Shown: in pieces, positions 3,620-51,471 of the stretch | How positions within the stretch are numbered: position 1 is the first letter of the stretch | How the letters are laid out: every line of letters starts with the position of its first letter | Assembly (NCBI GenBank): GCA_018652625.1 | Contig: JABIBT010000018.1 | Coordinates: 4,566-68,565 of the forward strand | Length of the DNA stretch: 64,000 nt | Source of the DNA: Candidatus Woesearchaeota archaeon | Lineage (GTDB): Archaea > Nanobdellota > Nanobdellia > SCGC-AAA011-G17 > PNOQ01 | Direction: 5' to 3' | Made by a program: the position numbers and the translations under genes | Notes under the pieces: model-generated | Databases searched by the model: none | What the model was told of the DNA's origin: nothing | Seen by the model: only the letters and a program-made list of their open reading frames with translations

Positions 3620-3707
3620 GCCCTTACCCCTACAAATCAAAAAAACACACAAAAACCTTAGCACAACCAATAACTTTATATATTACTTGGTCTTACTTAA
3701 TCTTACC

Positions 3708-3977: not shown

Positions 3978-4385
3978 CTCTTCAGGCTTTTTCACAGCTA
4001 CAAAATCAAACTCCAAAAAGTGTTTATCTCTAGTAACCATAACAGCATTATTGTCTCTAGCTAAAATTGCGTGAAGGGCATCACCAAAAGGAACATTTAA
4101 TTTTTTCTTAATCTCAAAAGCTTCCTTGGTTTGGTTTTTATTAATTTCTACTTTTTCTAATAACTCTCTATCAGAAGCAATATTTAAAATATTATTTATA
4201 GTTTTTATATCAAAGTGCCCGGATAGTTCTTTAATAACTAAATCCGAATAAAGGATCTTCTTTTCATCATCTAAAACTTTTTTAAAAAATTCAAAGGCCC
4301 ATTCTCCCAGAGGCCTAAACTTGTCTGTTCTATTTTCGTGCAAATCTCTCCAAATAGCAGTATCAACATAATACTTCTTCTCCAT
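3969..4385 (-). CDS. PIN-domain protein (VapC-like ribonuclease)
   Basis: N-terminal 'YYVDTAIW' acidic motif and a C-terminal 'MVTRDKHF' motif, typical of PIN/VapC. It is convergent with the RHH gene, with a 9-nt 3' overlap. Confidence 0.5.
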   Translation of the reverse strand: MEKKYYVDTAIWRDLHENRTDKFRPLGEWAFEFFKKVLDDEKKILYSDLVIKELSGHFDIKTINNILNIASDRELLEKVEINKNQTKEAFEIKKKLNVPFGDALHAILARDNNAVMVTRDKHFLEFDFVAVKKPEELI

Positions 4386-4485
4386 ATTTTACTAATCACG
4401 GAGTTATTTATAAACCATTTTGCTGTACGTGACAAGTTGACAAGGAAATAATAACATATATAAACAATAAATCTAAATCAAAATC

Positions 4486-5877
4486 ATGCTTAAGTTATAC
4501 AACACTCTAACAAGGAAAAAAGAAAATTTCAAACCAATAAAAGCAGGAACTGCATCTCTTTACGGCTGTGGACCAACTGTGTATTGGTATCAACACATTG
4601 GAAACATGCGTAGATACATCTTTGAAGATATTCTCAGAAGAACGTTACTTTTTAACAATCTAAAAGTAAAACATGTAATTAACATAACCGATGTAGGCCA
4701 TCTAACTTCTGATGCTGATGAAGGTGAAGACAAGATGATGAAGGCAATAAAAAGAGAAAAACTTCCCCCAACTTCAGAATCATTACTAAAAGTAGCAAGA
4801 AAATACGAAGATTCTTTCTTAGATGATGCAAGGAAACTAAACATCCAATCTCCAGATAAGTGGGCAAGAGCAACAGAACACATCAAAGATATGATTAATT
4901 TAATAAAAAAAATAGAAAAAAACGGTTATACTTACAAAACAAAAGTTGGTTTAATTTTTGATACTTCAAAATCAAAAGACTACACGAAATTAGCAAAACT
5001 AAAATTAGAAGATATGAAAGCAGGTTCTCGTGTTGAAGTAGATCCAGAAAGAAAAAACCCTTCAGACTTCGCTTTATGGATTACAAACCAACCAAAACAC
5101 ATTATGCAATGGGATTCTCCCTGGGGCAGAGGTTTTCCTGGCTGGCATATAGAATGTTCTGCAATGTCTTCAAAATATCTTGGAGATCAGTTTGACATCC
5201 ACACCGGAGGAGAAGAACACATTCCAATCCACCATACTAACGAAATAGCCCAGTCAGAAGCAGCTTGTGGAAAACATCCTTGGGTAAAATACTGGCTACA
5301 CATGAGATGGTTAGTCCTAAAAGAAGGAAAGATGTCCAAATCCGAAGGAAAAGTGTTTACAATTTCTGAATTAGAAAAGAAAGGCTACGATCCCCTAGAC
5401 TTTAGATATTTATGTTTACTAACCCACTATAGAAAAAGATTGTTATTTTCACTAGAATCTTTAGATTCTGCAAAGAAAACATATGATAGATTAAAAAATA
5501 TAATTTTAGAATTAAAAACAAAAAAAGATTCTAAAAAATCTAAAAATACTTATGAAAAAGACTTTTTAGAAAGTGTTAACGATGACCTAAACACTTCAAA
5601 AGCACTTTCTGTCTTATGGGCCGTGTTAAGAGATTCAAAACTAGGTTCTAAAGAAAAACTTGAACTTGCTTACGAATTTGACAAAGTTCTTGGTTTATCT
5701 TTAAAGGAATTAAAAGAAGATAAGATTCCAAAAGAAATAAAAGAAATTGCAGAAAAAAGACAAAAAGCAAGAACTGAAAAAGATTGGCCAACTTCAGACA
5801 AACTAAGAGACGAAATTTCTTCTAAAGGTTATGAAATAAAAGATTTAAAAGAAGGATATTTAATAAATAAAAAATAA
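4486..5877 (+). CDS. cysS: cysteinyl-tRNA synthetase
   Basis: Class I aaRS with a HIGH-region 'YQHIGNMRRY' and a 'KMSKSEGK' motif. Length (463 aa) and overall motif pattern match CysRS. Confidence 0.88.
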   Translation: MLKLYNTLTRKKENFKPIKAGTASLYGCGPTVYWYQHIGNMRRYIFEDILRRTLLFNNLKVKHVINITDVGHLTSDADEGEDKMMKAIKREKLPPTSESLLKVARKYEDSFLDDARKLNIQSPDKWARATEHIKDMINLIKKIEKNGYTYKTKVGLIFDTSKSKDYTKLAKLKLEDMKAGSRVEVDPERKNPSDFALWITNQPKHIMQWDSPWGRGFPGWHIECSAMSSKYLGDQFDIHTGGEEHIPIHHTNEIAQSEAACGKHPWVKYWLHMRWLVLKEGKMSKSEGKVFTISELEKKGYDPLDFRYLCLLTHYRKRLLFSLESLDSAKKTYDRLKNIILELKTKKDSKKSKNTYEKDFLESVNDDLNTSKALSVLWAVLRDSKLGSKEKLELAYEFDKVLGLSLKELKEDKIPKEIKEIAEKRQKARTEKDWPTSDKLRDEISSKGYEIKDLKEGYLINKK

Positions 5878-7341
5878 TTACTTCGGTCTTGTAATCGGGA
5901 AAGCAATCACATCCCTTAAATGAGAAGAATCAGTCAATAACATAATAATCCTGTCCATTCCAATTCCTAATCCTCCAGCAGGAGGCATTCCATGTTCAAT
6001 TGCAGTAACAAAATCTTCATCCATAGGATTAGCTTCATCATCTCCATCAACTCTCTCTTTCTCTTGTTCAGCCAGTAATTTTTCTTGAATCAATGGATTA
6101 TTCAATTCAGAGTAAGCATTTCCAACTTCATGTCCATTTATAAAAAATTCAAATCTCTCAATCAATTCAGGATCTCCTCTTTTTTCCTTACAAAGCGGGG
6201 AGGTTTCTTTTGGATAATCTGTAATAAAAGTTGGTTGAATAAGTTTTTCTTCAACTAAAGCCTCAAACAGTTCGTTAATAGCCCAACCCCTAGTAAATTT
6301 CTTAATTTCAAGTTTATGTTTTTTTAATTCTTTTTTTAATTCAGAATCTGTTAACTTATCAACATTTAATTTTCCATACTTCTTTAGGGCACCTTTCATA
6401 GTTAATTTTGTCCACGGTGCCTTAAAATTAATAGTCTTACCTTGATATTTCACACTACTGCCACCAGTAACTTTTTTCGCTAAGTGTTCAACCAAATTTT
6501 CTACCAAGACCATCATATCATTATAATCTTTATACGCCCAATAACATTCCATCATCGTAAATTCAGGATTATGGGTTCTATCTACTCCTTCATTCCTAAA
6601 GTTCTTACCAATAGTATAAACTTGCTCAAATCCACCAACCAATAACCTTTTCAAATAAAGCTCTGGGGAGATACTAAGAAATAAATCTATATTCCAAGCG
6701 TTTATATGGGTTTTAAACGGTCTTGCTGCTGCTCCGCCATAAATAGTTTGTAGTGCAGGTATTTCGACTTCTGTGAAATTTAATTTATCAAGAAAGGTTC
6801 TAGTTTCTTTTAATATTATATTCCTTTTGAAGAAAATATCCTTTTTTTCTGGATTTGCTATAAAATCTAAATATCTCTGCCTATATCTAGTCTCTTCATC
6901 CTTTAATCCTTTATGCTTATCAGGTAGTGGACGTAAACTTTTTGTTAATAAGACAAAATCATTAGCATCAATTGAAACCTCTCCTCTTTTAGTTTTGAAA
7001 ACTTTCCCAACAATACCAATTATGTCTCCGTGATCTACCTTTTTTAATTGATTATAATTATGTAATTTATCTTTAGTTGCAAAAACTTGGATTTTACCTG
7101 CCCGATCAAGGATTGTAAAAAAAGAAGCCTTTCCCATAACCCTACTAGTTAAAACTCTGCCAGCAACACTAACTTTCTTTCTAGTATGCTCCCCATCTTT
7201 TAATTTAGAATATTCTTCTTGAATTTCAGAAGAATCATGTGTTTTATCAAAACTATATGGATAAGGATTGATACCTTCTTCAATTAACCTATTTAATTTT
7301 TCTTTTCTAGATTTAATTAAATCATTTTCTTCTTTTTTCAT
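5878..7341 (-). CDS. lysS: lysyl-tRNA synthetase, class II
   Basis: N-terminal OB anticodon-binding region and class II motif 2 'FRNEGVDRTHNPEFTMMECYWAY', diagnostic of LysRS-II. Its stop abuts the cysS stop. Confidence 0.88.
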   Translation of the reverse strand: MKKEENDLIKSRKEKLNRLIEEGINPYPYSFDKTHDSSEIQEEYSKLKDGEHTRKKVSVAGRVLTSRVMGKASFFTILDRAGKIQVFATKDKLHNYNQLKKVDHGDIIGIVGKVFKTKRGEVSIDANDFVLLTKSLRPLPDKHKGLKDEETRYRQRYLDFIANPEKKDIFFKRNIILKETRTFLDKLNFTEVEIPALQTIYGGAAARPFKTHINAWNIDLFLSISPELYLKRLLVGGFEQVYTIGKNFRNEGVDRTHNPEFTMMECYWAYKDYNDMMVLVENLVEHLAKKVTGGSSVKYQGKTINFKAPWTKLTMKGALKKYGKLNVDKLTDSELKKELKKHKLEIKKFTRGWAINELFEALVEEKLIQPTFITDYPKETSPLCKEKRGDPELIERFEFFINGHEVGNAYSELNNPLIQEKLLAEQEKERVDGDDEANPMDEDFVTAIEHGMPPAGGLGIGMDRIIMLLTDSSHLRDVIAFPITRPK

Positions 7342-17070: not shown

Positions 17071-17099
17071 TCATAATAGCAAAACTTAAAAAAGCAAAA

Positions 17100-18173
17100 A
17101 TGAAAAAGGTATATATGAATAAAAAAGGATTTCTCGGATTGCCCTTTGGATCGGGTAAGAAAAAGGAAGAAAAGAAAGTTGAGAATAAAGAGAATTCTGA
17201 AAAATCGGATATAGAAATTGAAAAGAAAACAGCAAAACCAAAAGAATCCGAAGAAACTATAAAAGATTACAAGGCAGGATTGGGGGAAGATCCCACGATA
17301 GAAACACTCACTGAAGAGATGAAGATTGCAAAAAGAATAGCTAAAGAATATACAGAAGAAGAAGGAGTATCAAAAAAACAAGAGGAATCAGATGAATCAT
17401 CTTCAAAAGAAGTACCAACCTATAAAACAGGTATAGCTGGATTTGATGTTTTATTGGGCGGGGGAGGAATTCCGTGCTCTACAAGTGTATTGGTGGAAGG
17501 GGGCCCGGGGTCTGGAAAGACTATTTTTTGCTTACATGTGGCACAGTCTTTTTGTGAAAAGGGAAAAAAAGTGCTATATATGAGTTTTGAGGAACCAGAA
17601 GAAAGATTAATACAACATATGGAATCATTCGGAATGCCCGCAAAAAAATACGTAGAAAATGGAACATTAATAGTTAGGAGATTCAACGCTTTAGATATTG
17701 CAAGATCGGTAGAAGCCCTATTATCGGAAGCTAAAAAAGAACTGTTAATAGAGGTACAACCTATCTTAATTCCACAAGATATAGAACCAGATTTGGTATT
17801 AATTGACTCTCTTACATCTATTGCTTCAGCATTTTCTGGAGAAGACAATAGATTCAGAATTTATATGGAACAAATGTTTAGATATTTAGAGAATAATAAA
17901 ATGAGCTCCCTATTGATTAGAGAAGTTGCAAATCCCGGACATATAGGGGAGGGACATTCTGCATCTGATGAAGCAACAAGCTTTCTATCAGACGGGATTA
18001 TTGTTTTTTATAATGTGGTTCTCAATACGGGAAAAAGAACAAGGGCTATTGAGATATTAAAACTAAGAGGGCAACCTTTCGACAGAAGAATTGTAGAGGC
18101 AGAAATAATCAACAAAAAAGGGTTGATGGTATATCCCAAAAGAACACTAAAGGGAAAATATACACTAACTTAA
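17100..18173 (+). CDS. KaiC/RadA-like single-domain RecA-superfamily ATPase with a disordered K/E-rich N-terminus
   Basis: 'TGIAGFDVLLGGGGIPCSTSVLVEGGPGSGKT' (Walker A in a KaiC-type context), 'LVLIDSL' (Walker B region) and 'RAIEILKLRGQPFDRR', the KaiC-family signature. Confidence 0.65.
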   Translation: MKKVYMNKKGFLGLPFGSGKKKEEKKVENKENSEKSDIEIEKKTAKPKESEETIKDYKAGLGEDPTIETLTEEMKIAKRIAKEYTEEEGVSKKQEESDESSSKEVPTYKTGIAGFDVLLGGGGIPCSTSVLVEGGPGSGKTIFCLHVAQSFCEKGKKVLYMSFEEPEERLIQHMESFGMPAKKYVENGTLIVRRFNALDIARSVEALLSEAKKELLIEVQPILIPQDIEPDLVLIDSLTSIASAFSGEDNRFRIYMEQMFRYLENNKMSSLLIREVANPGHIGEGHSASDEATSFLSDGIIVFYNVVLNTGKRTRAIEILKLRGQPFDRRIVEAEIINKKGLMVYPKRTLKGKYTLT

Positions 18174-18180
18174 TTAAAAA

Positions 18181-19182
18181 ATGAAAAAAATATATTTATT
18201 TCTTATAGTTGCTCTTATTTTAGTACCATTTGTACAATCTGAAGAGGTCTCAGATATAGAAATAGAGCTACAACTTAAAATAAAAGAAGTAGAAATCATA
18301 GTTTTTGAACTTAGAGATGAAGGATTCAGTATTCAAAGAGTAAACGATACACTCGAAGCAGCAAAAGGAATTTTTGAAGTACAATCTCAAAGAAAAAGTA
18401 GGCAAAAAGATTTTACATTAGTTGACAAATACCTAGACGAAATTTTTGAATTAAAGAAGCAAGCATATGTAACAAGAGATGAGATTAATTATGTTTACGA
18501 ATTTTATAACGATACTAAAAAAAATAAACCGGATATGAACCTATCAGAAGTTGACAAAATTTTAGAAGAGATGCAATTTGAATTTGATAGTGAAAGATAT
18601 GATAGAGCATATGATTTATCAAAAAAGGCATACTCAAGAATAATTGACATAGAGGGGAGCTATACAGCAGTAAATTTAGCGTATCAAGCTACAGCAAGGA
18701 CTCTAAAAAATTTCCTTATAGATAATTGGTTATTATTACTTTCTATTTTAATTGGAGGTACATTCTTATATTTTTTATTTAGAAATAGAATAATTTTCTT
18801 TAAAACCAAACTAAGAATAAGATATTTAGAACGACAAAGAGGAGTATTAGAACAATTAATTAAGGAAACACAAAGCGGATATTTTGAAAAATCAACAATT
18901 GCAGAGTCTACATATAGGATCCGGACAAAAAAATTCTCAGATATGACTAGAGATATAAATAGACAACTACCTTTATTGAAAGAGGAATTGGCTAAAAGAA
19001 AGAAAGGAGAAAAGCCATTTGAGGAGAAAGTTAAAGATCGAAGTAAGAATAATTCAAAGAAAAAAAAGAAAAGAAAAGGGAGTTTCTCTATTTTTAAGAA
19101 GAAAAAACAAAATAAAATAATTAAGAAAAAAGTTGTCAAAAAGAAAGTTACGAAGAAAAAAGTAACAAAAAAGAAGAAATAA
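18181..19182 (+). CDS. bitopic membrane protein with a signal peptide, coiled-coil ectodomain, one TM helix and a poly-lysine cytoplasmic tail
   Basis: N-terminal 'IYLFLIVALILVPFVQS', an internal TM 'WLLLLSILIGGTFLYFLF', and a C-terminal KKK-rich tail. Separated by only 7 nt from the KaiC-like gene. Confidence 0.45.
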   Translation: MKKIYLFLIVALILVPFVQSEEVSDIEIELQLKIKEVEIIVFELRDEGFSIQRVNDTLEAAKGIFEVQSQRKSRQKDFTLVDKYLDEIFELKKQAYVTRDEINYVYEFYNDTKKNKPDMNLSEVDKILEEMQFEFDSERYDRAYDLSKKAYSRIIDIEGSYTAVNLAYQATARTLKNFLIDNWLLLLSILIGGTFLYFLFRNRIIFFKTKLRIRYLERQRGVLEQLIKETQSGYFEKSTIAESTYRIRTKKFSDMTRDINRQLPLLKEELAKRKKGEKPFEEKVKDRSKNNSKKKKKRKGSFSIFKKKKQNKIIKKKVVKKKVTKKKVTKKKK

Positions 19183-20043
19183 TTATTTTCCCTTATGAAA
19201 CTTCAATTGTTTAATTTTTCCATTTTTTATTTCTAATAAAATATTTACATCAGAACCAAAACCAGCATTAACACAAACAGTTTTTCCAATCTTATCTTTT
19301 CCAAAATGTTCATGCATGTGCCCACCGATACAAATTAAAGGATTGTATTTCTCAATTATTTCTCTAGTTATCATAGAACCAAAATGTTGTCCGTTTCGGG
19401 GGGAATACTTATTATTTATTTTATCAATCTTCGTATTAAAGGGAACATTGTGAGAAAGAAAGATAACTGGGAGATTTATATTTTTGAATAAGTTATCTAT
19501 TTTTCCTAAATGTTTTTCATATTTTAACTTTTTTATTTTTAATTCATTTTTTCCATATCTTTCTAAATCCTCTTTATATTGTGGATACTCTGGTCCGGAA
19601 GATATACCGTGGCCAATGAAATTAATGCCATTAAAAATAACTTTTTTTTCATGCAAATTAATAATATTTTTTAATCCAACTACAAGTTTCTTAAAATGGT
19701 CTTTTTTTAAAAAATTCCAATTTATCTCTCTCTCAACAAAAGGAGTCCAATCCCAATTGCCAGGGACAATATAAACTGGAACACCATAAGAATTTAATTT
19801 TTCTAATATTTTCCTTCCATCAGAAAGAGATTTCATAATTATTTTTTTAGCTTCTTTTTTACCAACTATATCATACCATTCAGTTTTTGATTTGGGAGTT
19901 ACTAATCTTTCTTTCAAAGCCCGAAACATATACTTTTTTGATTCATCAGAACAAAAATCTCCTGGAGCAATAATTGCATCAAAATCCTTAAAATGAATCT
20001 TTGGTTTTTTTCCGTGCAAATCTCCAATAATTAAAAATTTCAT
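19183..20043 (-). CDS. calcineurin-like metallophosphoesterase
   Basis: 'IIGDLHGK' and 'GGHMHEHFG' metal-binding motifs. Confidence 0.6.
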   Translation of the reverse strand: MKFLIIGDLHGKKPKIHFKDFDAIIAPGDFCSDESKKYMFRALKERLVTPKSKTEWYDIVGKKEAKKIIMKSLSDGRKILEKLNSYGVPVYIVPGNWDWTPFVEREINWNFLKKDHFKKLVVGLKNIINLHEKKVIFNGINFIGHGISSGPEYPQYKEDLERYGKNELKIKKLKYEKHLGKIDNLFKNINLPVIFLSHNVPFNTKIDKINNKYSPRNGQHFGSMITREIIEKYNPLICIGGHMHEHFGKDKIGKTVCVNAGFGSDVNILLEIKNGKIKQLKFHKGK

Positions 20044-28644: not shown

Positions 28645-29943
28645 ATGGAAACACTTTACTCACTAAGAAAAAGATTATTAGAAAAAGGAGCTGAAGATAT
28701 AGTTCTTACTAAATCAGAATCAGATGAATCCATGATTAAATTTGTAAACAACAAGATAGTAAAAACGGGTTTAGAGACAACTCATTCTATAGATATTTTT
28801 GTAGCTAAAGATAAAAAATTAGTAGCTACCTCATTAAAAGAATTTGATGAAAATTCCATAAACAAAATGGTACAAAAAATAATAGAATTTCTAAAAGCCT
28901 CACAAAAAAATAATTCTTACGTAACAATACCCGAAAATAAATTCAAATATCCAAAAATAGAAAATAGTTATGATTCCAAAATAAAAGACTGTGACCCCGT
29001 AGAGATTGTAAACACATCAATCAATGAAGCTTTAAAAAATGCAAAAAGAACGGCTGGAACCTTCCAAAGCTCAACAGGAAAAGTTTCAATTTTAACTTCA
29101 ACAGGGATAGAACAAGAAGATAAGTCTTCTTCATTGTATTTATCTTTGAGAGCGTTTGCAACAAAAGAAGCATCAGGGCATAAAACAGCAACATCTTCAA
29201 TCTTTAAAAAGTTCAATTATGAAAAAGCAGGAGAACAAGCAGGAGAAATAGCAAAACAAGCCTTAAATCCAGAAGAAGGAAAATCAGGAGAGTATGATGT
29301 TGTATTTTCACCATTGGCATTTGCTTCAATCTTAGATAACCTTGGAGAAGCTTCTTCTATTTTTAGTGTAGAATCTGGAATGTCTTTTTTACAAGAAAAA
29401 TTAAATGAAAACTTAGGTAACTTCAATTTAATTGATGATGGAACTTTAAATAATGGAGTAGGATCTTCTAAATTTGATGCAGAAGGACATCCAACCCAAA
29501 GAACAGAAGTAATTAAGGATGGAGTTTTAAAAACATATTTACATAATACTTCTTCTGCTAGTAGATACAAAACAAAATCAACTGGTAACGCCGGAATTAT
29601 TTCTCCTTCACCAACTAACTTAATTTTAGAAGGAAAAGAAGGAAATCCATTTAATATTGACAAGGGAATATACGTTTCGAACGTATGGTATACGCGTTTC
29701 CAAAATTATACTACTGGAGATTTTTCAACAATTCCTAGAGATGGAATGTTTATGATTAAAAACGGAGAAATTGATAAACCAATAAAAAATCTAAGAGTTT
29801 CTGAAAATGTTTTAAACATGTTAAAAAATATTTCTCTTTTTGGAAAAGATAAAGAACAAATTACTTCTTGGGAAGCCTCAATACCTTGTAATCTAGCTCC
29901 ACTATTAATAAAAAAAGTTAGAATGACAAAACCAACTGCGTAA
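28645..29943 (+). CDS. pmbA: TldE/PmbA-family protein (partner of TldD)
   Basis: 432 aa with the TldD/PmbA fold pattern. It lacks HExxH, as expected for the TldE subunit. Confidence 0.65.
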   Translation: METLYSLRKRLLEKGAEDIVLTKSESDESMIKFVNNKIVKTGLETTHSIDIFVAKDKKLVATSLKEFDENSINKMVQKIIEFLKASQKNNSYVTIPENKFKYPKIENSYDSKIKDCDPVEIVNTSINEALKNAKRTAGTFQSSTGKVSILTSTGIEQEDKSSSLYLSLRAFATKEASGHKTATSSIFKKFNYEKAGEQAGEIAKQALNPEEGKSGEYDVVFSPLAFASILDNLGEASSIFSVESGMSFLQEKLNENLGNFNLIDDGTLNNGVGSSKFDAEGHPTQRTEVIKDGVLKTYLHNTSSASRYKTKSTGNAGIISPSPTNLILEGKEGNPFNIDKGIYVSNVWYTRFQNYTTGDFSTIPRDGMFMIKNGEIDKPIKNLRVSENVLNMLKNISLFGKDKEQITSWEASIPCNLAPLLIKKVRMTKPTA

Positions 29944-45085: not shown

Positions 45086-46234
45086 TTAAGAATCATTACA
45101 AATGCCTGGACAAAAAGGAGATAATTTAGCAACAAGATCAGAATATTTTCTAAAGAAAGAATCAACAAAAGGGTATAATTTCCCACCCTGCCTACTTTTA
45201 TTAATTTCCCGACTAAGCTGCCTAAAATCCCTCTCTAATCCAGATAGAACTTTATTAAATCTAAAACCATTCATATCAGAAATATATTTTTCATCTTCAC
45301 AAAAAGCAATATTTCTTTCAGAGAAACCATTGTTTTGAAAGAAAGTTCCCAAATTATCAACCAAATTAACAAATTTCTTTCCCCCATCTAACAACCCTTT
45401 TTTAACATCAACTGATTGTCTAGAAAAAGAAAGGCTTTTTGCAAAAGTATACCTTAAAGGATCAGAACCATCTTGAAGAAGTTTATCCATGTCCCATTCA
45501 CCAAATCCCCCTTCCGGATTGATACGATTAAAAATAAAAACATTTTTCATAGGAAGTTTATCTGAAATTCCGGTTTGAGAGTAAAATCTTAATAATAAAT
45601 ATCTGGCTATCTCTTTTTCTGAACATGACATAAAATCTATCTCATTATCAAAATAAGCCTCCCACATATTTGCAACTGTGAAGATTGGAGATATGTTTTC
45701 TCCGCCCAAGGGGTTTGAAGCAGCATATTTTCTAGGCTTTGATATTTTAATTGCATCAGAACTTTTTCTAATCATTCTCAAAAATTCACTTTTAGCTCTT
45801 CCAGGGAAGAAATTTATTTTTTCTACAACTCCCTCTAAATCTTTTTCAGAAGAAATTTTTCCAACATTCAAATAAGTTTCATCTCCACTTCTAATAATAT
45901 ATCCTTTTTTATCTAATTCTACAAGAACTTCCTGAGATTTTTCCATTGATTCTGGAACACAATCTAAAATTTCCCCTTCAAAAGACAAATTCAACTTATC
46001 TCTCAATTGGCCTTCTTCAATCATGTTTCTAACATGGTCTTCCAAAGGAATATTTAGTCCTAAATTTTCTGCCCTTTTACCCAGGGCATTCAAACTATAT
46101 TTATGACAAACTACATCTTCTCCCAAATTATTCAAAAACCTTGCATGAATATCCAATAAAGTATGGTAGTAAGCATAACCTAATGGAAGATCTCCATTGT
46201 AGATTCCTGCAGGCGGATTAGCTATTACCTTCAT
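45086..46234 (-). CDS. class Ia aminoacyl-tRNA-synthetase-like protein (MetRS-like catalytic core) with degenerate HIGH and KMSKS motifs
   Basis: Aligns with the MetRS N-terminal Rossmann region, but HIGH is replaced by 'LPLG' ('YNGDLPLGYAYY'). The KMSKS-equivalent reads 'KISKPRK'. A 'DPLRYTF' (MetRS 'DxLRYYL'-like) block is present. Confidence 0.45.
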   Translation of the reverse strand: MKVIANPPAGIYNGDLPLGYAYYHTLLDIHARFLNNLGEDVVCHKYSLNALGKRAENLGLNIPLEDHVRNMIEEGQLRDKLNLSFEGEILDCVPESMEKSQEVLVELDKKGYIIRSGDETYLNVGKISSEKDLEGVVEKINFFPGRAKSEFLRMIRKSSDAIKISKPRKYAASNPLGGENISPIFTVANMWEAYFDNEIDFMSCSEKEIARYLLLRFYSQTGISDKLPMKNVFIFNRINPEGGFGEWDMDKLLQDGSDPLRYTFAKSLSFSRQSVDVKKGLLDGGKKFVNLVDNLGTFFQNNGFSERNIAFCEDEKYISDMNGFRFNKVLSGLERDFRQLSREINKSRQGGKLYPFVDSFFRKYSDLVAKLSPFCPGICNDS

Positions 46235-46997
46235 TTTCCATTTTCCATATCCAAGATATAACTGCCGGGATAGAATTCTCCTTTATACGGCTGTGATTAT
46301 CTTCAGTTTCTTTATACACACTTTTTTCAGAATTCAATTTTTCATAAAATTCTTTTGTTCTATTACAACTCACAGAATTGTCATTTTTTCCATGGATTAA
46401 TAGAATTCTTTTGTTCCTTAAGTTATCAACATAATCTACAGGATTTACATCAATTCCAGTTTCACAAAAATTATCCCATTCCATTTTATTCATTTTCCTA
46501 TAAGTATTCTCAAAACCAAATTTCATAAAATCAAATAATCCAGATAAATTTTCTTCTCTTATATTTGGATCTTTAGCATGCACGGAATAGTCCACAACGG
46601 GAGCTAGAGCTACAATTCCATCAATATCTAATTCAGCACCAGTAGATAAAGCAATACTCCCGCCAAAGCTATGACCCACTAAAAATATTTTTTTAGGAGA
46701 AACATCAAAAGAATTATTAAAAACAGTTTTAATTTTTCCTGCTTTCAACCCACCAACAAAAGAAATAATAGTTTCTTTACATTTGGTAATACTAAAATTT
46801 CCATAACTTTCCCACGAACCAATATACTTTGGGTGGATGAATGTAAATCCTTCATCAACATACCTTTTTGCTAATTCTAAGTAGTTGGACTTTCCAGGAA
46901 TTCCAGCACAAAATATAATAACTGCACCATTATTTTTTTCAGATGGATAGTATGAATCAGCAACTATCTTTCCATATCTTAATTTATTTTTTCTCAT
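46218..46997 (-). CDS. alpha/beta-hydrolase
   Basis: Nucleophile elbow 'GHSFGG', and downstream Asp/His candidates. Confidence 0.55.
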   Translation of the reverse strand: MRKNKLRYGKIVADSYYPSEKNNGAVIIFCAGIPGKSNYLELAKRYVDEGFTFIHPKYIGSWESYGNFSITKCKETIISFVGGLKAGKIKTVFNNSFDVSPKKIFLVGHSFGGSIALSTGAELDIDGIVALAPVVDYSVHAKDPNIREENLSGLFDFMKFGFENTYRKMNKMEWDNFCETGIDVNPVDYVDNLRNKRILLIHGKNDNSVSCNRTKEFYEKLNSEKSVYKETEDNHSRIKENSIPAVISWIWKMENEGNS

Positions 46998-47919
46998 TAT
47001 ATAGCCCCAAGGAATGATTAAAATCTCTCTTTAAATCACCAATATCTCCCTCCATAGGTTTCAAAAAATAGGAAGGAGTAAATAAATAATTACCATTTCT
47101 CCCACCAATCCAATATCTTCCATCTAATAATATTTTTCTTTCTTTTCCTTGTAAATGGTCCACCAAATCAGGAGTGGCAGGAGCTATTCTAAAAAAGAAA
47201 TCATCAAAATTATATACACTCCCATATACTTTTTCAATTTTTTCACTCATTGGCATAGATCCCCTCTCAGAAAGCCAGTTTTCCATAAGTTCAGTTATCT
47301 CTGTTTCATTAATCTGATCTTTTTTCATATTTACTTCTTCTATTAATTTTAAGTTAATTTTTCTATCATAACAAAAACTCATTAATTCTGGAAGGCTATC
47401 TAAATTTACTCTTGTGACAGGAGTATTAAATTCGACCCTTACATTGTTTCTCTTACAATATTCAGAAGTCTCGATTATGTTGATAAGTTCTCTTCTAACT
47501 TTTTTTCTTATTGTATCTTCAAAAACCGATCTATTAAGAGAAGGAACATGTATATGCAAGGCCCCAAGGCCAGCATCAGCTAAATTAGAGATATCTCTAC
47601 CATCCACATTTGAACAATTTGTAGTTAGGCCAATGTCATCAATACCATTATGGCTTAAAAGTTTGACAATATCTAATAAGTCGGTTCTCATAGAAGGTTC
47701 TCCACCAGTAAGCCGAACATGAAGGTTATTTTCTTTAGCCAACCCGCTAATACCTTCAACTTGATCTAAACCAAAATTTGCATATCCATTATCATGCTTA
47801 CCATCAGAAAATGGCCCACAATAAAAACAATCATGATTACATGCCCCGGTAACAGATATTCTTATTTCATATAGAGGCATACTAACTTTGATATCTGAAG
47901 TGGTTAGATTTTCTTCCAT
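46984..47919 (-). CDS. radical-SAM enzyme, MoaA-like fold but without the C-terminal second-cluster cysteines
   Basis: 'VTGACNHDCFYCGP' (Cx3Cx2C), 'RLTGGEPSMR', 'GLTTNCSN' and 'GLGALHIHVPSLN' parallel the MoaA blocks. No C-terminal Cx2Cx13C is present. Confidence 0.65.
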   Translation of the reverse strand: MEENLTTSDIKVSMPLYEIRISVTGACNHDCFYCGPFSDGKHDNGYANFGLDQVEGISGLAKENNLHVRLTGGEPSMRTDLLDIVKLLSHNGIDDIGLTTNCSNVDGRDISNLADAGLGALHIHVPSLNRSVFEDTIRKKVRRELINIIETSEYCKRNNVRVEFNTPVTRVNLDSLPELMSFCYDRKINLKLIEEVNMKKDQINETEITELMENWLSERGSMPMSEKIEKVYGSVYNFDDFFFRIAPATPDLVDHLQGKERKILLDGRYWIGGRNGNYLFTPSYFLKPMEGDIGDLKRDFNHSLGLYNEKK

Positions 47920-48698
47920 GTAATGATATCTCCTATTTTTGCACCAAGTTTTTTTGCTGAACTTAATTCTCTAACTTTCCCAATTTCTGGAAGGTTATTT
48001 AGTGAACTTCCCGGATAAATTGCCCAGGTGCTGTCTTCTAGATCCTTCATAGAATAAGAAAAAACAGCAACAATTTTTCTTTCTCCATTAACAAATATAT
48101 CTAATTTATCTCCCTCTTCTAAATTTTCCAAACTTCCATTTATTTTTAAAACACCAAAATTATCAATATGGACAACACATCCATCTTCGACTCTATAATC
48201 GCATAAAAATTCTTCACTTCTTTCTTCCCCAAGTCCTGAAAAATTAACACCTTTAGCAACTTTAGCTACGGCGGGGGAATGCACATGTTTTCCACCAAAT
48301 GAAATAAAATCTTTTCCCATTAATCCAGACGCATTTAATTCATATAAGTTTTTCAATCCAAAATCTTTTATGAGCCAATTTAATGTTCCAGTGTTGGCCC
48401 CAACAAATTTAAAACCATTTTTAGTTTCTCCAATAATTCTTGCTCTATCTTTTCTATTTGTCCTTAAAGAATTTAAAACAACTAAGAAAATTGTATTCGA
48501 AGGATCATAAACTTCTCCCATAAGTCTAACAAGAAAAGAACCATTCTCAATGGAAAATTCTTTTGCCTTTACTAAGGGTTCAACAGAAATGTTTTGGCTA
48601 GTATCCCCTAATTCACTCAGAATAGTAGCTCTCATCTCGTTATATGCTACATCGGAACAATCCGAAACTATAACGATTCTTTTGGCCACGCCAATCAT
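47904..48698 (-). CDS. DUF62 / SAM hydroxide adenosyltransferase-family protein (fluorinase/chlorinase superfamily)
   Basis: 'FGGKHVHSPAVAKVAKGV' and 'VVHIDNFGVLKING' match the conserved DUF62 blocks. The N-terminal 'RIVIVSDCSD' is in the 'TDFG..D' position. Confidence 0.6.
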   Translation of the reverse strand: MIGVAKRIVIVSDCSDVAYNEMRATILSELGDTSQNISVEPLVKAKEFSIENGSFLVRLMGEVYDPSNTIFLVVLNSLRTNRKDRARIIGETKNGFKFVGANTGTLNWLIKDFGLKNLYELNASGLMGKDFISFGGKHVHSPAVAKVAKGVNFSGLGEERSEEFLCDYRVEDGCVVHIDNFGVLKINGSLENLEEGDKLDIFVNGERKIVAVFSYSMKDLEDSTWAIYPGSSLNNLPEIGKVRELSSAKKLGAKIGDIITWKKI

Positions 48699-48846
48699 AT
48701 TTTTTTGTCTTTAATTTATCCTTATAAACTTTTCTATTTGTAACCACTATAGAAAAATAACATTATCTCGGAATCTTTTTCCAATAATCTTTTAAAGCTT
48801 TCCTAGTCCAGAAAGCTTTAAATACTCAAAAACTTGACCGCAAACC

Positions 48847-49949: not shown

Positions 49950-51206
49950 TTAATTAAATTCATCTCCAAAATAAACCGACATAAAATTTACTCTTTCTTC
50001 AGGTTTACTCTTTTCTCTATTATCATCAAATCCGCTACAACCAAAATCTTTGCCAAAGAATAAATATCCCCCATAATCAATCAACCCATCTCCATCATTA
50101 TCTATTCTATCAGAACACTCTGGGCATCCTTCAGGGACATCTTGTGGGCACCAAGAACAATCTTCTCCTTCATCAAAGATTCCATCTCCACAACAGGCAT
50201 AATCTCTTCCGCCAGGACGATAACAATCTTGGAAACAATCACCATTTGGTTCTCCAACATAGCAAGCTTCCCAATTATCACAAACTCCATCACCACAACT
50301 AAATTCGCATCCATGGATATCATAATTCCCATCATCACAATCAGGAATTTCTCTTGAACAACCTAAACCATCACAACTATCTGGTTTTTCCAGTCCAGAA
50401 TGGAATGCTGCAATTCCCCAAAAACAATAAGCATCTCCATCATTATTTTGGCAATCTCCAGAATATTGATATTTCAGACCAATTAAACCGACCGGCATAG
50501 CATCAGTTTCATAAAAATTTTGACCATATTCTAATCTAGCGCTATCTTTCACAAAAAGCCTTCCGTCAGAATTGTCCTCATCATATCCATAAATTAAAAC
50601 AGAATGAAATACATCTCCAGCAGCATAAGTAGCTTCAACAGGGCCATAAATCCATAAAACTTTCCTTATAAGTTTCATTCCTTCATTATAATCCATATTA
50701 AATAAAGAAAAATAATCATAATCATCTATACTTGGAGCACTTGAACCACAGCTATAGTTTCCACCAACAGTCCAACAATTAACATCAGTACCAATTAAAT
50801 TAGAGTAAGGATAACAATCACTTTCTTCCTGAAAAGAAATTGAACTAATTAAAAACTCAGCAGCGTAAACAGAACTTCCACCATTATACACACATCCTAT
50901 TGGGCCTTCCCAACATTCTTCACAGTTTTCAATAAGGTAAAGCTCAGCTAAATCAATACTATCAACATTTACTCTTGTTAGCAAATATTGGGATTCAAGA
51001 GCAGCAATAGTACCAAAAGCCCAACATGTTCCAATACCATATTGATTTGTTGAGTGTTCAGGAATCCATGATTTTCCATGTATATTATCCCAAACTATAC
51101 TATCAAAAAAATCTCTATCTTTTGTTTTAGCAAGAGAACCTACACTAAATAAACTAATGAAAACTAACGCAAACACCAAAAATGAAAAAAAGTTAAGTGA
51201 TTTCAT
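49950..51206 (-). CDS. secreted papain-like (C1) cysteine peptidase with a Cys/Asp-rich C-terminal domain
   Basis: Signal peptide. 'NQYGIGTCWAFGTIAALE' (oxyanion Gln plus the catalytic Cys context 'CWAF'). 'FHSVLIYGYDED' (catalytic His context). The C-terminal ~150 aa are Cys-rich with a 'DNDGDGLIDY' Ca-binding-like motif. Confidence 0.55.
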   Translation of the reverse strand: MKSLNFFSFLVFALVFISLFSVGSLAKTKDRDFFDSIVWDNIHGKSWIPEHSTNQYGIGTCWAFGTIAALESQYLLTRVNVDSIDLAELYLIENCEECWEGPIGCVYNGGSSVYAAEFLISSISFQEESDCYPYSNLIGTDVNCWTVGGNYSCGSSAPSIDDYDYFSLFNMDYNEGMKLIRKVLWIYGPVEATYAAGDVFHSVLIYGYDEDNSDGRLFVKDSARLEYGQNFYETDAMPVGLIGLKYQYSGDCQNNDGDAYCFWGIAAFHSGLEKPDSCDGLGCSREIPDCDDGNYDIHGCEFSCGDGVCDNWEACYVGEPNGDCFQDCYRPGGRDYACCGDGIFDEGEDCSWCPQDVPEGCPECSDRIDNDGDGLIDYGGYLFFGKDFGCSGFDDNREKSKPEERVNFMSVYFGDEFN

Positions 51207-51213
51207 AGTTCAG

Positions 51214-51471
51214 TTATCCATATATTGTTTTTAATTCACTAAGGGAAATTGAATAATAAATTCCTCCGCCCCCACATGCAGTTCCTTGTCCAGAACATGC
51301 AGAACCATCTGAAGAACAGCTGCAACAAATTTCTTGCCCAGTTTCAGGGTCTATGCTACAATTACAAGTCCCTCCAGAACCAAATGCTTGAACAAAAGAA
51401 GCATTCCAAAAAATAAATCCAGCAAGCAAAACCGCTAATACTGCTCCAAAAATAATAATTCCTTTTTTCAT
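51214..51471 (-). CDS. small secreted Cys/Gly-rich peptide (85 aa)
   Basis: Signal peptide followed by 'GTCNCSIDPETGQEICCSCSSDGSACSGQGTACGGGG'. Confidence 0.35.
   Translation of the reverse strand: MKKGIIIFGAVLAVLLAGFIFWNASFVQAFGSGGTCNCSIDPETGQEICCSCSSDGSACSGQGTACGGGGIYYSISLSELKTIYG

What the first reader, a model, noticed from the sequence alone, without database searches (positions are those of the whole stretch)
45086..48698. Overlapping four-gene operon: DUF62 SAM hydrolase-like, MoaA-like radical SAM without its second cluster, alpha/beta hydrolase, and a catalytically degenerate MetRS-like protein
The four minus-strand genes overlap by 16, 14 and 17 nt, which indicates translational coupling. 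Two of them are SAM-consuming enzyme families whose by-product is methionine. The radical-SAM enzyme yields Met plus 5'-dA, and DUF62 enzymes cleave SAM to Met plus adenosine, or to a 5'-halo-adenosine in fluorinase/chlorinase relatives. The fourth gene is a class Ia aaRS-like protein closest to the MetRS catalytic core. Its HIGH motif is replaced by LPLG, and its KMSKS motif is degraded to KISKPRK. So it probably binds Met or an adenylate analogue but does not aminoacylate. The radical-SAM protein has every MoaA block except the C-terminal Cys triad that binds GTP. The window contains no other molybdopterin-synthesis genes, so it is unlikely to be a true MoaA. Together this resembles a small, unreported SAM/Met-centred modification or natural-product cassette.
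Basis: partly seen in the sequence, partly recalled or inferred. Interest (0 to 1): 0.75.

Follow-up and report, generated by a model that had tools for sequence, protein, structure and literature searches.

The report
SAM-adenosyl cassette with dead MetRS-like protein
A conserved four-gene operon of tiny symbiotic archaea and bacteria combines two SAM-using enzymes, a hydrolase and a catalytically dead tRNA-synthetase look-alike; it belongs to a larger undescribed set of gene clusters that most likely make amino-acid-linked adenosine analogues aimed at tRNA synthetases.

Summary
The four overlapping minus-strand genes are real and their family assignments hold. It aligns to the class Ia "W-x-ISR" motif. 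The true KMSKS loop is deleted, HIGH reads PLGY, and the amino-group-binding Asp is Asn.

A confident model (pLDDT 95) matches full-length MetRS (TM 0.74-0.77). The radical SAM enzyme resembles MoaA over only about 200 N-terminal residues and is not MoaA. The DUF62 protein belongs to a CPR/DPANN subfamily that lacks the water-activating Asp and His. The hydrolase has an intact Ser-Asp-His triad.

The quartet recurs in DPANN archaea. In some CPR bacteria an S66 (MccF/LdcA-type) peptidase replaces the hydrolase. In about 90 surveyed loci this DUF62 subfamily usually sits beside a serine hydrolase and a synthetase: pseudo-MetRS, IleRS, TyrRS or TrpRS. One sister cluster adds PAPS synthesis, a sulfotransferase and an amidotransferase, as in nucleoside-sulfamate antibiotic pathways.

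Best reading (confidence about 0.4) is a SAM-derived aminoacyl-nucleoside pathway in which the pseudo-synthetase acts like AcmF or SbzA and the hydrolase like AcmE. The "methionine-centred" idea is not supported. No description of these clusters was found.

The parts
47904..48698 (-). DUF62-fold SAM adenosyl-transfer enzyme of a CPR/DPANN-specific subfamily ('DUF62s'), 264 aa. The positions of the hydrolase triad read N76 / R87 / G135 instead of Asp / Arg / His.
   Evidence: Pfam PF01887 scores 39.9 bits against a cut-off of 26.3. The C-domain PF20257 is below its cut-off. NCBIfam (R)-SAM hydrolase scores 26 bits against a cut-off of 470. The subfamily has at least 161 clusters in CPR and DPANN. 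Aligned to PH0463 (1wu8), D68 becomes N and H127 becomes G. Coordinates verified.
46984..47919 (-). Radical SAM enzyme, 311 aa. It is MoaA/viperin-related in the N-terminal core (CNHDCFYC at 47818-47841) and has a family-specific C-terminal domain with no auxiliary-cluster cysteines.
   Evidence: PF04055 4.1e-17. MoaA NCBIfam models score 99-102 bits against cut-offs of 231-325 and match only residues 15-220. The profile hits S. aureus MoaA 1tv7 at 6.8e-26 over positions 10-200 only. About 74 family clusters are separated from true MoaA by a gap from E 1e-51 to 1e-14. Alignment.
46218..46997 (-). Alpha/beta-fold serine hydrolase, 259 aa, with a GHSFGG nucleophile elbow (S110), D206 and H235.
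   Evidence: Pfam Hydrolase_4, Peptidase_S9 and BD-FAE hits. The triad is 97-100% conserved in 35 orthologues. Orthologues sit next to aaRS-like proteins or DUF62s in 44 loci.
45086..46234 (-). MetRS-fold pseudo-aminoacyl-tRNA-synthetase, 382 aa, with a Rossmann core and a C-terminal anticodon-binding-type helical domain. HIGH reads PLGY (46175-46186), the conserved Asp is N49, and the KMSKS loop is deleted (PEGGFGEW, 45494-45517).
   Evidence: motif mapping. (pLDDT 94.9). (top 47 PDB hits are all MetRS, best 2csx at E 5e-15). (coordinates).
45728..45748 (-). It is the counterpart of the class Ia 'W-x-ISR-x-x-WG' motif.
   Evidence: In alignment A2 it aligns with WEISRSIWWG and WNISRERDFG of genuine short class Ia synthetases.
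48699..48846 (-). Intergenic region upstream of the operon, shared with the divergent DHH/DHHA1 gene. A TATA-like TTTATAA lies about 24-30 nt before the DUF62 start codon (about 48722-48728).
   Evidence: Sequence read. Assigning it as a promoter is inference only; no archaeal promoter tool was available.

Best explanation
The operon most likely encodes a short pathway that turns SAM into an amino-acid-conjugated adenosine analogue, that is, a mimic of an aminoacyl-adenylate.

Step 1 (fold shown, chemistry inferred). The DUF62-fold enzyme attacks C5' of SAM, releases methionine and yields adenosine or a 5'-substituted 5'-deoxyadenosine. The water-activating Asp and His of SAM hydrolases are Asn and Gly here. 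The nucleophile is therefore probably not simply activated water.

Step 2 (inferred). The MoaA/viperin-related radical SAM enzyme has no auxiliary cluster. It remodels the ribose or nucleoside part.

Step 3 (loss of activation shown, role inferred). The MetRS-fold protein cannot form an aminoacyl-adenylate. It keeps the synthetase scaffold and an anticodon-binding-type domain. By analogy with AcmF (ascamycin) and SbzA (SB-203208), it would take an aminoacyl group from a charged tRNA and put it on the nucleoside. Alternatively it binds or sequesters the product.

Step 4 (active site shown, substrate inferred). The serine hydrolase removes that aminoacyl or acyl group, for activation or self-protection, as AcmE and MccF do. 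In CPR versions an S66 (MccF/LdcA-type) peptidase takes its place.

The cassette is one variant of a modular family of CPR/DPANN clusters. These are built from this DUF62 subfamily, a serine hydrolase and a synthetase or pseudo-synthetase, plus variable tailoring genes.
For: The quartet is conserved with varying gene order in DPANN. A variant with an S66 peptidase occurs in CPR.

The cassette is modular. The hydrolase is orthologous (E 1e-43 to 1e-45) to hydrolases next to more aaRS-like relatives in loci that lack DUF62 and radical SAM genes. The DUF62 of the window matches the one in the sulfotransferase-type clusters at 1e-75.

In 93 DUF62s loci, 60 have an aaRS or aaRS-like gene within 4 genes. 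Among loci well covered on both sides the figure is 31 of 41, and it is 18 of 22 lineages at 70% identity. The partners are pseudo-class-Ia, IleRS, TyrRS (bacterial and archaeal types) and TrpRS, all above equivalog cut-offs. Several overlap DUF62s by 4-32 nt in one operon (L059, L084, L129).

TyrRS and TrpRS alternate at the same position beside the same hydrolase-DUF62s unit. Each comes with a homologous unknown partner (hhalign 98.7%).

The sister cluster (L008-L010, L014, L015, L075-L082) adds CysD, CysN/APS kinase, a sulfotransferase, an AsnB-type amidotransferase, a TauE exporter and IleRS. This parallels the acm and nuc nucleoside-sulfamate clusters (PMC4257720, PMC10946740).

Precedents exist. 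AcmF is an aaRS-like protein without ATP-site residues that uses aa-tRNA. AcmE is an alpha/beta hydrolase that de-alanylates. SbzA is IleRS-like (PMC12945691).

HIGH, KMSKS and the Asp are all lost. The MetRS fold is confident. The hydrolase triad is intact. The DUF62 triad is lost.

Distribution is patchy: 5 loci among 185,579 species genomes with the patterns used. It spans both domains of life, which argues against a housekeeping role.
Against: No product, substrate or activity is known for any of the four proteins.

The window cassette has no sulfur-activation, aminotransferase or exporter gene, so the acceptor nucleophile for an aminoacyl group is unidentified.

The aaRS genes beside DUF62s in sister clusters pass equivalog thresholds and may be the only, housekeeping copies. 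Copy number could not be tested.

In the commonest cluster type the aaRS is convergent to DUF62s, not co-transcribed. DUF62s also neighbours enolase in 9 loci, so part of the adjacency may be lineage synteny.

The window's pseudo-synthetase is acidic (pI 6.0) while the family median is 9.1. This weakens a tRNA-binding argument for this particular copy.

Antibiotic production by genome-reduced symbionts is unusual.
Confidence: 0.4

Rival explanations
1. RNA-modification complex. The MetRS-fold protein is a catalytically dead tRNA-recognition subunit. It presents a tRNA to the radical SAM enzyme, which modifies a nucleotide. The DUF62 enzyme and the hydrolase supply or trim a SAM-derived group.
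For: The best structural match is the MetRS-tRNAMet complex, and the anticodon-binding-type domain is retained. Many Arg and Lys residues are invariant and the family median pI is 9.1. The genes overlap, which suggests a complex. From general knowledge, radical SAM enzymes commonly modify RNA, and small-genome organisms invest heavily in translation.
Against: Sister clusters carry PAPS synthesis, a sulfotransferase, an amidotransferase and an exporter, which fits small-molecule chemistry. The partner synthetases are of four different specificities and are intact enzymes. A serine hydrolase or an MccF-type peptidase is an odd part of an RNA-modification system. Distribution is patchy. The window copy is acidic.
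Confidence: 0.2
2. One reading: SAM/methionine housekeeping. The two SAM-consuming enzymes release methionine (plus adenosine or 5'-deoxyadenosine). The MetRS-like protein binds or channels methionine. The hydrolase clears by-products.
For: Both enzyme families release methionine (established chemistry; PMC10491745). The fold is closest to MetRS. Canonical DUF62 proteins are now named (R)-SAM hydrolases, a repair function.
Against: The Asp that binds the amino-acid ammonium group in class Ia synthetases is Asn in all members. The DUF62 hydrolytic triad is lost. Sister clusters use IleRS, TyrRS or TrpRS, not anything Met-related. The cassette is rare and patchy. A radical SAM enzyme with no substrate has no housekeeping rationale.
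Confidence: 0.1
3. Resistance or detoxification cassette against aaRS-targeting aminoacyl-nucleoside antibiotics made by others. The pseudo-synthetase is a decoy that soaks up the inhibitor. The hydrolase (or MccF-type peptidase) cleaves it.
For: MccF-family S66 peptidases replace the alpha/beta hydrolase in CPR versions. The pseudo-synthetase plus hydrolase pair also occurs without DUF62 and radical SAM genes. From general knowledge, aa-AMP mimics bind synthetase pockets very tightly.
Against: It gives no role to the tightly coupled DUF62 and radical SAM genes in the window operon. The pocket residues that make adenylate mimics bind tightly (HIGH, KMSKS, Asp) are the very ones lost.
Confidence: 0.12
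4. The radical SAM gene is a genuine MoaA and the cluster is part of molybdenum-cofactor synthesis.
For: The best-scoring named families are MoaA models, and source annotations call relatives MoaA.
Against: Scores are less than half the equivalog cut-offs. There is no PF06463 domain, no auxiliary-cluster cysteines and no C-terminal Gly-Gly. No MoaC, MoaE or MoCF_biosynth family appears in any of the annotated neighbourhoods or among the window ORFs scanned.
Confidence: 0.02

Closest known systems
AcmF / AcmE / AcmD module of ascamycin biosynthesis (Streptomyces; PMC12945691, PMC4257720)
   Same: It has an aaRS-derived protein that has lost the ATP and amino-acid activation residues, encoded next to an alpha/beta-fold hydrolase, in a cluster acting on an adenosine-derived nucleoside. 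The acm cluster also holds a radical SAM gene and a UbiE-type methyltransferase, as some cassette variants do (L003). The sister CPR cluster shares CysD, APS kinase and a sulfotransferase with acm.
   Different: AcmF is class II (AlaRS-like), whereas this protein is class Ia (MetRS fold), so there is no homology. The window has no sulfate-activation or sulfamate genes and no cognate full aaRS in the operon. acm has no DUF62 enzyme. The hosts are DPANN and CPR rather than actinomycetes. No activity was tested here.
SbzA, the IleRS-like aminoacyl transferase and self-resistance protein of SB-203208 biosynthesis (PMC12945691)
   Same: It is a class Ia synthetase scaffold used for aa-tRNA-dependent aminoacylation of a small molecule. 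The sister CPR clusters carry a full IleRS beside DUF62s, the radical SAM gene and the sulfotransferase.
   Different: SbzA keeps HYGH and AMSKA motifs, an editing domain and weak canonical activity. The window protein has lost HIGH, KMSKS and the CP/editing insertions and is only 382 aa.
MetRS (class Ia aminoacyl-tRNA synthetase)
   Same: The overall fold and domain order match: Rossmann core, stem-contact region and helical anticodon-binding domain. TM is 0.74-0.77 to many MetRS structures.
   Different: HIGH reads PLGY, the KMSKS loop is deleted, the Asp is Asn, and there is no zinc knuckle or CP insertion. There is no Pfam or NCBIfam MetRS hit. Sequence identity is 12-18%.
DUF62 SAM hydroxide adenosyltransferase / (R)-SAM hydrolase, and the FlA fluorinase and SalL chlorinase
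   Same: It has the same fold and, by motif conservation, a similar SAM site (TD.., HIDNFG, PGSS). Like the halogenases, it lacks the His-Arg-Asp water-activating triad.
   Different: Asn and Gly replace Asp and His. Scores are far below the hydrolase equivalog cut-offs. The match to SalL (E 3e-4) and FlA (E 0.02-0.2) is only weak. The nucleophile is unknown.
MoaA (GTP 3',8-cyclase) and viperin-type nucleotide radical SAM enzymes
   Same: It has the same N-terminal radical SAM core. Several MoaA core motifs are kept (R20, TGGEP, TTN, N165, K191 in LKLIEE).
   Different: There is no auxiliary 4Fe-4S cluster and no Mob_synth_C domain. The C-terminal domain is family-specific (LLDGRYWIGG, FTPSYF). 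The gene is never found with Moco genes.
MccF (S66) self-immunity peptidase of microcin C
   Same: An S66 peptidase occupies the hydrolase slot of the cassette in CPR versions (L005, L006 and the P0003 locus). MccF cleaves aminoacyl-nucleotide amide bonds.
   Different: It is not present in the window. S66 also includes LD-carboxypeptidases of cell-wall recycling, and the specificity was not tested.

Membership tests
MoaA (GTP 3',8-cyclase) | N-terminal CX3CX2C radical SAM cluster | tested here: met
   C27-N-H-D-C31-F-Y-C34
MoaA (GTP 3',8-cyclase) | C-terminal auxiliary 4Fe-4S cluster (three Cys) within the Mob_synth_C domain (PF06463) | tested here: not met
   No PF06463 hit. The cysteines are absent in all 17 family members aligned with two true MoaA. 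All true MoaA hits carry PF06463.
MoaA (GTP 3',8-cyclase) | Score above the curated equivalog cut-off | tested here: not met
   102.3 against 231, 101.4 against 284 and 98.7 against 325 bits
MoaA (GTP 3',8-cyclase) | Genomic association with other Moco genes | tested here: not met
   None in the annotated neighbourhoods or in the window ORFs scanned. The whole genome was not available.
DUF62 SAM hydroxide adenosyltransferase / (R)-SAM hydrolase | SAM_HAT N- and C-domains | tested here: inconclusive
   The N-domain scores 39.9 bits against a cut-off of 26.3. The C-domain scores 18.4 against 25.5, below the cut-off. The profile hits DUF62 structures at 7e-16 to 5e-9 over the full length.
DUF62 SAM hydroxide adenosyltransferase / (R)-SAM hydrolase | [quoted passage not shown] | tested here: not met
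   PH0463 D68 aligns with invariant N76 and H127 with invariant G135. An Arg (R87) is kept.
DUF62 SAM hydroxide adenosyltransferase / (R)-SAM hydrolase | Score above the NCBIfam equivalog cut-off | tested here: not met
   26.2 against 470 and 19 against 350 bits
SAM-dependent fluorinase / chlorinase | Halide-binding pocket residues and halogenase activity | not tested
   There is only weak profile similarity to SalL (3e-4) and FlA (0.02-0.2). Pocket residues were not mapped.
Class Ia aaRS / MetRS (as an enzyme) | Rossmann catalytic fold plus helical anticodon-binding domain | tested here: met
   AF2 pLDDT 94.9. Foldseek top 47 hits are all MetRS, with E down to 5e-15 and TM 0.74-0.77.
Class Ia aaRS / MetRS (as an enzyme) | HIGH motif | tested here: not met
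   PLGY aligns with HLGH and HMGH of genuine enzymes. Neither His is kept in the family.
Class Ia aaRS / MetRS (as an enzyme) | KMSKS loop | tested here: not met
   The loop is shortened by about 7 residues and reads PEGGFGEW where genuine enzymes have G-x-KMSKS-x-GN.
Class Ia aaRS / MetRS (as an enzyme) | Conserved Asp binding the substrate alpha-ammonium group (role stated from general knowledge) | tested here: not met
   N49 is invariant in 61 family members and aligns with the Asp of GTDHAG and GFDVTG.
aa-tRNA-dependent aaRS-like transferases (AcmF / SbzA type) | aaRS scaffold with lost or weak activation chemistry, in a small-molecule gene cluster | tested here: met
   Cluster context.
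aa-tRNA-dependent aaRS-like transferases (AcmF / SbzA type) | Transfers an aminoacyl group from aa-tRNA to a nucleoside or sulfonamide acceptor | not testable with these tools
   This needs biochemistry. There is no sequence homology to AcmF (class II).
Alpha/beta-fold serine hydrolase | Nucleophile elbow GxSxG with an Asp and a His | tested here: met
   G108-H-S110-F-G, D206 and H235 are 97-100% conserved in 35 orthologues.
Prokaryotic viperin (pVip) defence | Score at family level | tested here: not met
   PADLOC pVip scores 51.8 bits. NCBIfam viperin scores 37 bits against a cut-off of 180, weaker than the MoaA match.

The most novel reading that the evidence does not exclude
CPR bacteria and DPANN archaea share a widespread, unrecognised family of modular 'adenosyl-transfer' clusters. 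In them a new kind of DUF62 enzyme would transfer the adenosyl group of SAM to an amino-acid-derived nucleophile, for example a carboxylate, giving 5'-O-aminoacyl-adenosine, a phosphate-free isostere of the aminoacyl-adenylate. The co-encoded synthetase or pseudo-synthetase would set the amino-acid specificity. A dedicated esterase would provide immunity or turnover. Episymbionts would use these compounds to interfere with translation in their hosts or competitors.
Probability: 0.15. Interest if true: 0.9.

Novelty: new variant of a known kind. Interest (0 to 1): 0.78.

Why it matters
If the reading is right, four things follow.

- It would be the first nucleoside-type, synthetase-targeting secondary metabolism assigned to the ultra-small CPR and DPANN symbionts. 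These organisms are usually thought to have almost no biosynthetic capacity.
- It would add a third class of nucleophile to SAM adenosyl-transfer chemistry, which so far is known only for water and halides.
- It would define a new family of class Ia pseudo-synthetases. About 80 representatives at 50% identity have lost all three activation signatures while keeping the full MetRS architecture.
- It would give a concrete genomic marker (triad-less DUF62 plus serine hydrolase plus aaRS) for mining such clusters.

Even if the mechanism proves wrong, the association of this DUF62 subfamily with synthetases of several specificities is a robust pattern that needs an explanation.

Tried and rejected
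- Direct Pfam, NCBIfam and PDB sequence searches of the 382-aa protein gave nothing significant, alone or as a 23-sequence profile. The profile's best PDB hits were spurious dehydroquinase matches.
- The first AF2 model, built from 23 close homologues, was poor (pLDDT 67.7). It was replaced by a 61-sequence model.
- The hypothesis that the ~560-aa unknown protein of the sulfotransferase-type clusters is a hidden relative of the pseudo-synthetase was rejected (hmmsearch; hhalign; no PDB, Pfam or NCBIfam hit).
- hhalign among all unknown partner families found only u205~u262 and hyd~Ser_hydrolase.
- A known anti-phage defence system was rejected. PADLOC gave only a weak pVip hit to the radical SAM core.
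- No riboswitch or T-box regulation was found in eight loci at Rfam gathering thresholds.
- True MoaA was rejected (see the membership test).
- A frameshift or sequencing artefact was rejected, because length and motifs are conserved across 24 clusters.
- The genome-contig scan with strict peptide patterns found only 5 family loci, so taxonomic breadth rests mainly on metagenome contigs.
- The afdb50 fold library was unavailable.
- I could not determine whether the cluster-linked IleRS, TyrRS and TrpRS are second copies.

Full report
**1. What is in the window**

The region holds four minus-strand ORFs:
- 48698-47904 (264 aa)
- 47919-46984 (311 aa)
- 46997-46218 (259 aa)
- 46234-45086 (382 aa)

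They overlap by 16, 14 and 17 nt. G+C is about 0.31-0.32, the same as the rest of the window. The identical 382-aa protein is recorded from a Candidatus Woesearchaeota MAG.

The operon lies between a DEAD-box helicase gene downstream and a divergent DHH/DHHA1 phosphoesterase gene upstream. Other genes within about 10 kb are deoxyhypusine synthase, agmatinase, GatD and FtsZ. Elsewhere the window carries canonical CysRS, a class II Asp/Asn/Lys-type synthetase, TrpRS preceded by tRNA-Trp, and GatB. No molybdenum-cofactor gene was seen among the ORFs scanned.

**2. The four proteins**

*(a) DUF62 protein.* Pfam SAM_HAT_N is significant and the C-domain is sub-threshold. NCBIfam (R)-SAM hydrolase models score 26 and 19 bits against cut-offs of 470 and 350. 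It belongs to a well-defined subfamily of at least 161 clusters (90% identity), named from Woesearchaeota, Micrarchaeota, Marsarchaeota, Woesebacteria, Paceibacterota and Wolfebacteria. Its signature motifs are TDCxDVAYNE, LNP, FGGK[Y/H]VH, HIDNFG and PGSSL.

A profile alignment to the solved hydrolases puts invariant N76 opposite PH0463 Asp68 and invariant G135 opposite His127. An Arg (R87) is retained. A review states that the His-Arg-Asp triad is strictly conserved in DUF62 hydrolases, activates the nucleophilic water, and is absent in the halogenases (PMC10491745). So the fold and probably the SAM site are kept, but the water-activating machinery is not.

*(b) Radical SAM protein.* It has CNHDCFYC and TGGEP. 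It matches MoaA models only over residues about 15-220, at less than half the equivalog cut-offs. The profile hits S. aureus MoaA 1tv7 only over positions 10-200. The C-terminal third has family-specific motifs (LLDGRYWIGG, FTPSYF), no cysteines and no PF06463 domain. About 74 family clusters are separated from true MoaA by a gap from E 1e-51 to 1e-14.

*(c) Hydrolase.* It is an alpha/beta-fold enzyme with GHSFGG (S110), D206 and H235. These residues are 97-100% conserved in 35 orthologues.

*(d) The 382-aa protein.* It has no Pfam hit. Its 24 close homologue clusters are 382-404 aa and highly conserved, which excludes a frameshift artefact.

An exhaustive profile search found 81 representatives. 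Among them are 448-480-aa intermediates (E 1e-39 to 1e-31) that pass PF00133 (class I I/L/M/V synthetases). At E about 1e-4 the search also reaches genuine short class Ia synthetases. The joint alignment shows:
- HIGH (HLGH, HMGH) corresponds to P17-L18-G19-Y20.
- The Asp of the G-x-D-x-x-G element corresponds to invariant N49.
- The G-x-KMSKS-x-GN loop corresponds to a shortened PEGGFGEW (residues 240-247).

With a 61-sequence alignment AlphaFold2 gives pLDDT 94.9 and pTM 0.92. The top 47 Foldseek PDB hits are all MetRS. The best is the A. aeolicus MetRS-tRNAMet complex (E 5e-15). TM is 0.74-0.77 over the whole chain, including the helical anticodon-binding-type domain. The protein is therefore a full-architecture MetRS-fold pseudo-synthetase that has lost all three activation signatures.

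**3. Conservation of the quartet**

The same four families occur together in the window, L001, L003 (plus a UbiE-type methyltransferase), L007, L012, L013 and L067, and partly in L011. All are DPANN-type contigs, and the position of the DUF62 gene varies.

On bacterial contigs the order is radical SAM, DUF62, pseudo-synthetase, then an S66 (MccF/LdcA-type) peptidase in place of the alpha/beta hydrolase. Bacterial markers on these contigs include EF-Ts, L31 and two-component genes, and a related radical SAM protein is named Falkowbacteria.

**4. The cassette is built from modules that recur elsewhere**

I surveyed 93 loci that carry the DUF62 subfamily. I used my own HMMs and BLAST clustering, and Pfam and NCBIfam on representatives. 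The recurrent architectures are listed below (> and < mark gene direction).

- **T1:** the window type.
- **T2:** P-loop kinase, AsnB-type amidotransferase, a ~560-aa unknown, DUF62s, the same radical SAM family, a sulfotransferase, and often CysD, CysN/APS kinase, TauE and a full IleRS. It is seen in Moraniibacteria, Falkowbacteria and others. IleRS stays adjacent despite rearrangements (L008-L010, L014, L015, L075-L082).
- **T3:** longer pseudo-synthetase relatives (with a zinc knuckle), the orthologous hydrolase, an unknown protein and a methyltransferase, without DUF62 or radical SAM genes (L050-L053; hydrolase E 1e-43 to 1e-45).
- **T4 (about 35 loci):** PPDK_N-type ATP-grasp/phosphotransferase > hydrolase > DUF62s >, followed convergently by either < u205 < TyrRS or < u262 < TrpRS. 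u205 and u262 are homologous (hhalign 98.7%). Some loci also carry a B12-radical SAM gene.
- **T5:** Ser_hydrolase > a weak HisRS/HisZ-like protein > DUF62s > enolase.

In L059, L084 and L129, TyrRS and DUF62s overlap by 4-32 nt in one operon. In L059 the T1-type radical SAM gene and a B12-radical SAM gene follow.

Overall, 60 of 93 loci have a synthetase or pseudo-synthetase within four genes of DUF62s. The figure is 31 of 41 for loci with at least 3 genes on both sides, and 52 of 93 have a serine hydrolase. After collapsing DUF62s at 70% identity, 18 of 22 informative lineages keep the association. My rough chance expectation is about 18% for an 8-gene neighbourhood in a genome where about 2.5% of genes are aaRS genes. 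The formal binomial value (1e-15) overstates significance because the loci are related.

Three caveats apply:
- In T4 the aaRS is convergent, not co-transcribed.
- DUF62s also neighbours enolase in 9 loci.
- The aaRS genes pass equivalog cut-offs and keep HIGH and KMSKS, so they may be housekeeping copies.

**5. Mechanistic reading**

T2 contains the parts list of nucleoside-sulfamate pathways: PAPS synthesis, a sulfotransferase and an amidotransferase. To these it adds an enzyme that makes an adenosine-type nucleoside from SAM, and an IleRS.

The ascamycin cluster has CysD, APS kinase, a sulfotransferase, a radical SAM gene, a UbiE-type methyltransferase, an AlaRS (AcmD), an AlaRS-like protein (AcmF) and a hydrolase (AcmE) (PMC4257720). 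Nucleocidin sulfamylation needs PAPS genes and sulfotransferases (PMC10946740).

According to PMC12945691:
- AcmF is a truncated synthetase-like protein that lacks ATP-binding residues and transfers alanine from Ala-tRNA to the nucleoside sulfamate.
- AcmE is an alpha/beta hydrolase proposed to remove that alanine.
- SbzA is an IleRS-like enzyme and self-resistance protein that uses Ile-tRNA.

Adenosine sulfamate is also conjugated to amino acids by target synthetases themselves ('reaction hijacking', PMC7613620).

The window cassette shares the DUF62s plus radical SAM pair with T2. It shares the pseudo-synthetase plus hydrolase pair with T3. It can therefore be read as nucleoside formation (DUF62s), tailoring (radical SAM), aminoacyl handling (pseudo-synthetase) and deacylation (hydrolase).

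What is shown: the folds, the lost and retained catalytic residues, the conservation and the modular co-occurrence. What is inferred: every substrate and product, the use of aa-tRNA, and the biological target. I put this at about 0.4.

**6. Rivals**

- **tRNA/rRNA modification complex (about 0.2).** The pseudo-synthetase would act as the tRNA adaptor. This fits the MetRS-tRNA-like architecture and the basic pI of most members (median 9.1, although the window copy is 6.0). It does not explain PAPS genes, sulfotransferase, exporter and hydrolase, or the varied intact synthetases.
- **Resistance or decoy cassette (about 0.12).** This explains T3 and the S66 swap but gives no role to DUF62s and the radical SAM enzyme.
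It is weakened by N49, by the lost hydrolase triad, by the Ile, Tyr and Trp partners, and by rarity (5 loci among 185,579 species genomes with the patterns used).
- **True MoaA (about 0.02).** It fails every specific test.
- **Known defence systems.** No match.
- **Riboswitch or T-box regulation.** None found.

**7. Novelty**

I found no paper that describes these clusters, the triad-less DUF62 subfamily or this pseudo-synthetase family. The review states that adenosyl transfer from SAM is known only for hydrolysis and 5'-halogenation.

The closest known systems are the AcmF/AcmE and SbzA modules. The resemblance is functional logic, not family membership: AcmF is class II, and SbzA keeps its motifs. 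I classify the finding as a new variant of a known kind, namely aaRS-like-containing nucleoside clusters. A smaller chance remains that the DUF62 chemistry is categorically new.

Noticed in passing
L092:3246-19883 (also L087, L093, L095, L115): The hydrolase-DUF62s-TyrRS cluster (T4) lies between the 16S (3246-4733) and 23S (16750-19714) rRNA genes. It sits directly next to two tRNA genes (5592-5754) and a large serine recombinase (5710-7260). This suggests that this cluster type, including its TyrRS, may ride on an integrative element.
   Followed up: partly
L092:10804-11451 (u205) and L104:10795-11583 (u262): An unknown protein family with no Pfam, NCBIfam or PADLOC hit always sits next to the cluster-linked TyrRS (u205 form) or TrpRS (u262 form). 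The two forms are homologous (hhalign 98.7%). It may relate to the 'ORF1' reported to co-evolve with non-canonical TrpRS in CPR and DPANN (PMC5370408). This link was not tested.
   Followed up: partly
L051:8001-11942 (and L052, L050): Longer relatives of the pseudo-synthetase (448-480 aa) carry a CxxC...CxxC zinc knuckle and a half-degraded KMSKS (for example KRMSKANKN). They sit with the orthologous hydrolase, a 307-aa unknown protein and a methyltransferase, between DnaJ and NusA/IF-2 in a bacterial genome. They look like evolutionary intermediates between real class Ia synthetases and the window protein.
   Followed up: partly
L059:9049-13168: An archaeal contig carries an overlapping operon of TyrRS (archaeal type), DUF62s, the T1-type radical SAM gene and a B12-binding radical SAM gene, with no hydrolase or pseudo-synthetase.
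   Followed up: no
window:48847-49947 (+): A DHH/DHHA1-family phosphoesterase (weak hits only) is transcribed divergently from the operon. Enzymes of this family include pAp and nanoRNA phosphatases. It is not conserved next to the cassette in other loci.
   Followed up: partly
window:8767-17070 (+): A giant 2767-aa ORF has repeated right-handed beta-helix / NosD domains and an NPCBM-associated domain. It is probably a surface protein.
   Followed up: no
window:40610-41705 and 49950-51471 (-): Several cysteine-rich, signal-peptide-like proteins are present. They include a papain-family (C1) protease with a Cys-rich C-terminal extension, directly upstream of the divergent DHH gene.
   Followed up: no
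window:20117-21514 and 28645-29943 (+): Two TldD/PmbA-family metallopeptidase genes lie about 7 kb apart.
   Followed up: no
window:59455-61362 (+): tRNA-Trp (CCA) is followed, after a gap with a minus-strand RtcB-related fragment ORF, by an archaeal-type TrpRS (TIGR00233 scores 234 bits against a cut-off of 176.75). The u205/u262 family is not present here.
   Followed up: yes
window:45086-46234 (-): The window's pseudo-synthetase is acidic (pI 6.0), whereas the family median is 9.1 (range 5.1-9.6). It is also slightly closer in sequence to the bacterial S66-linked versions (53-54% identity) than to other DPANN versions (48-51%). This hints at transfer between the two domains of life.
   Followed up: no
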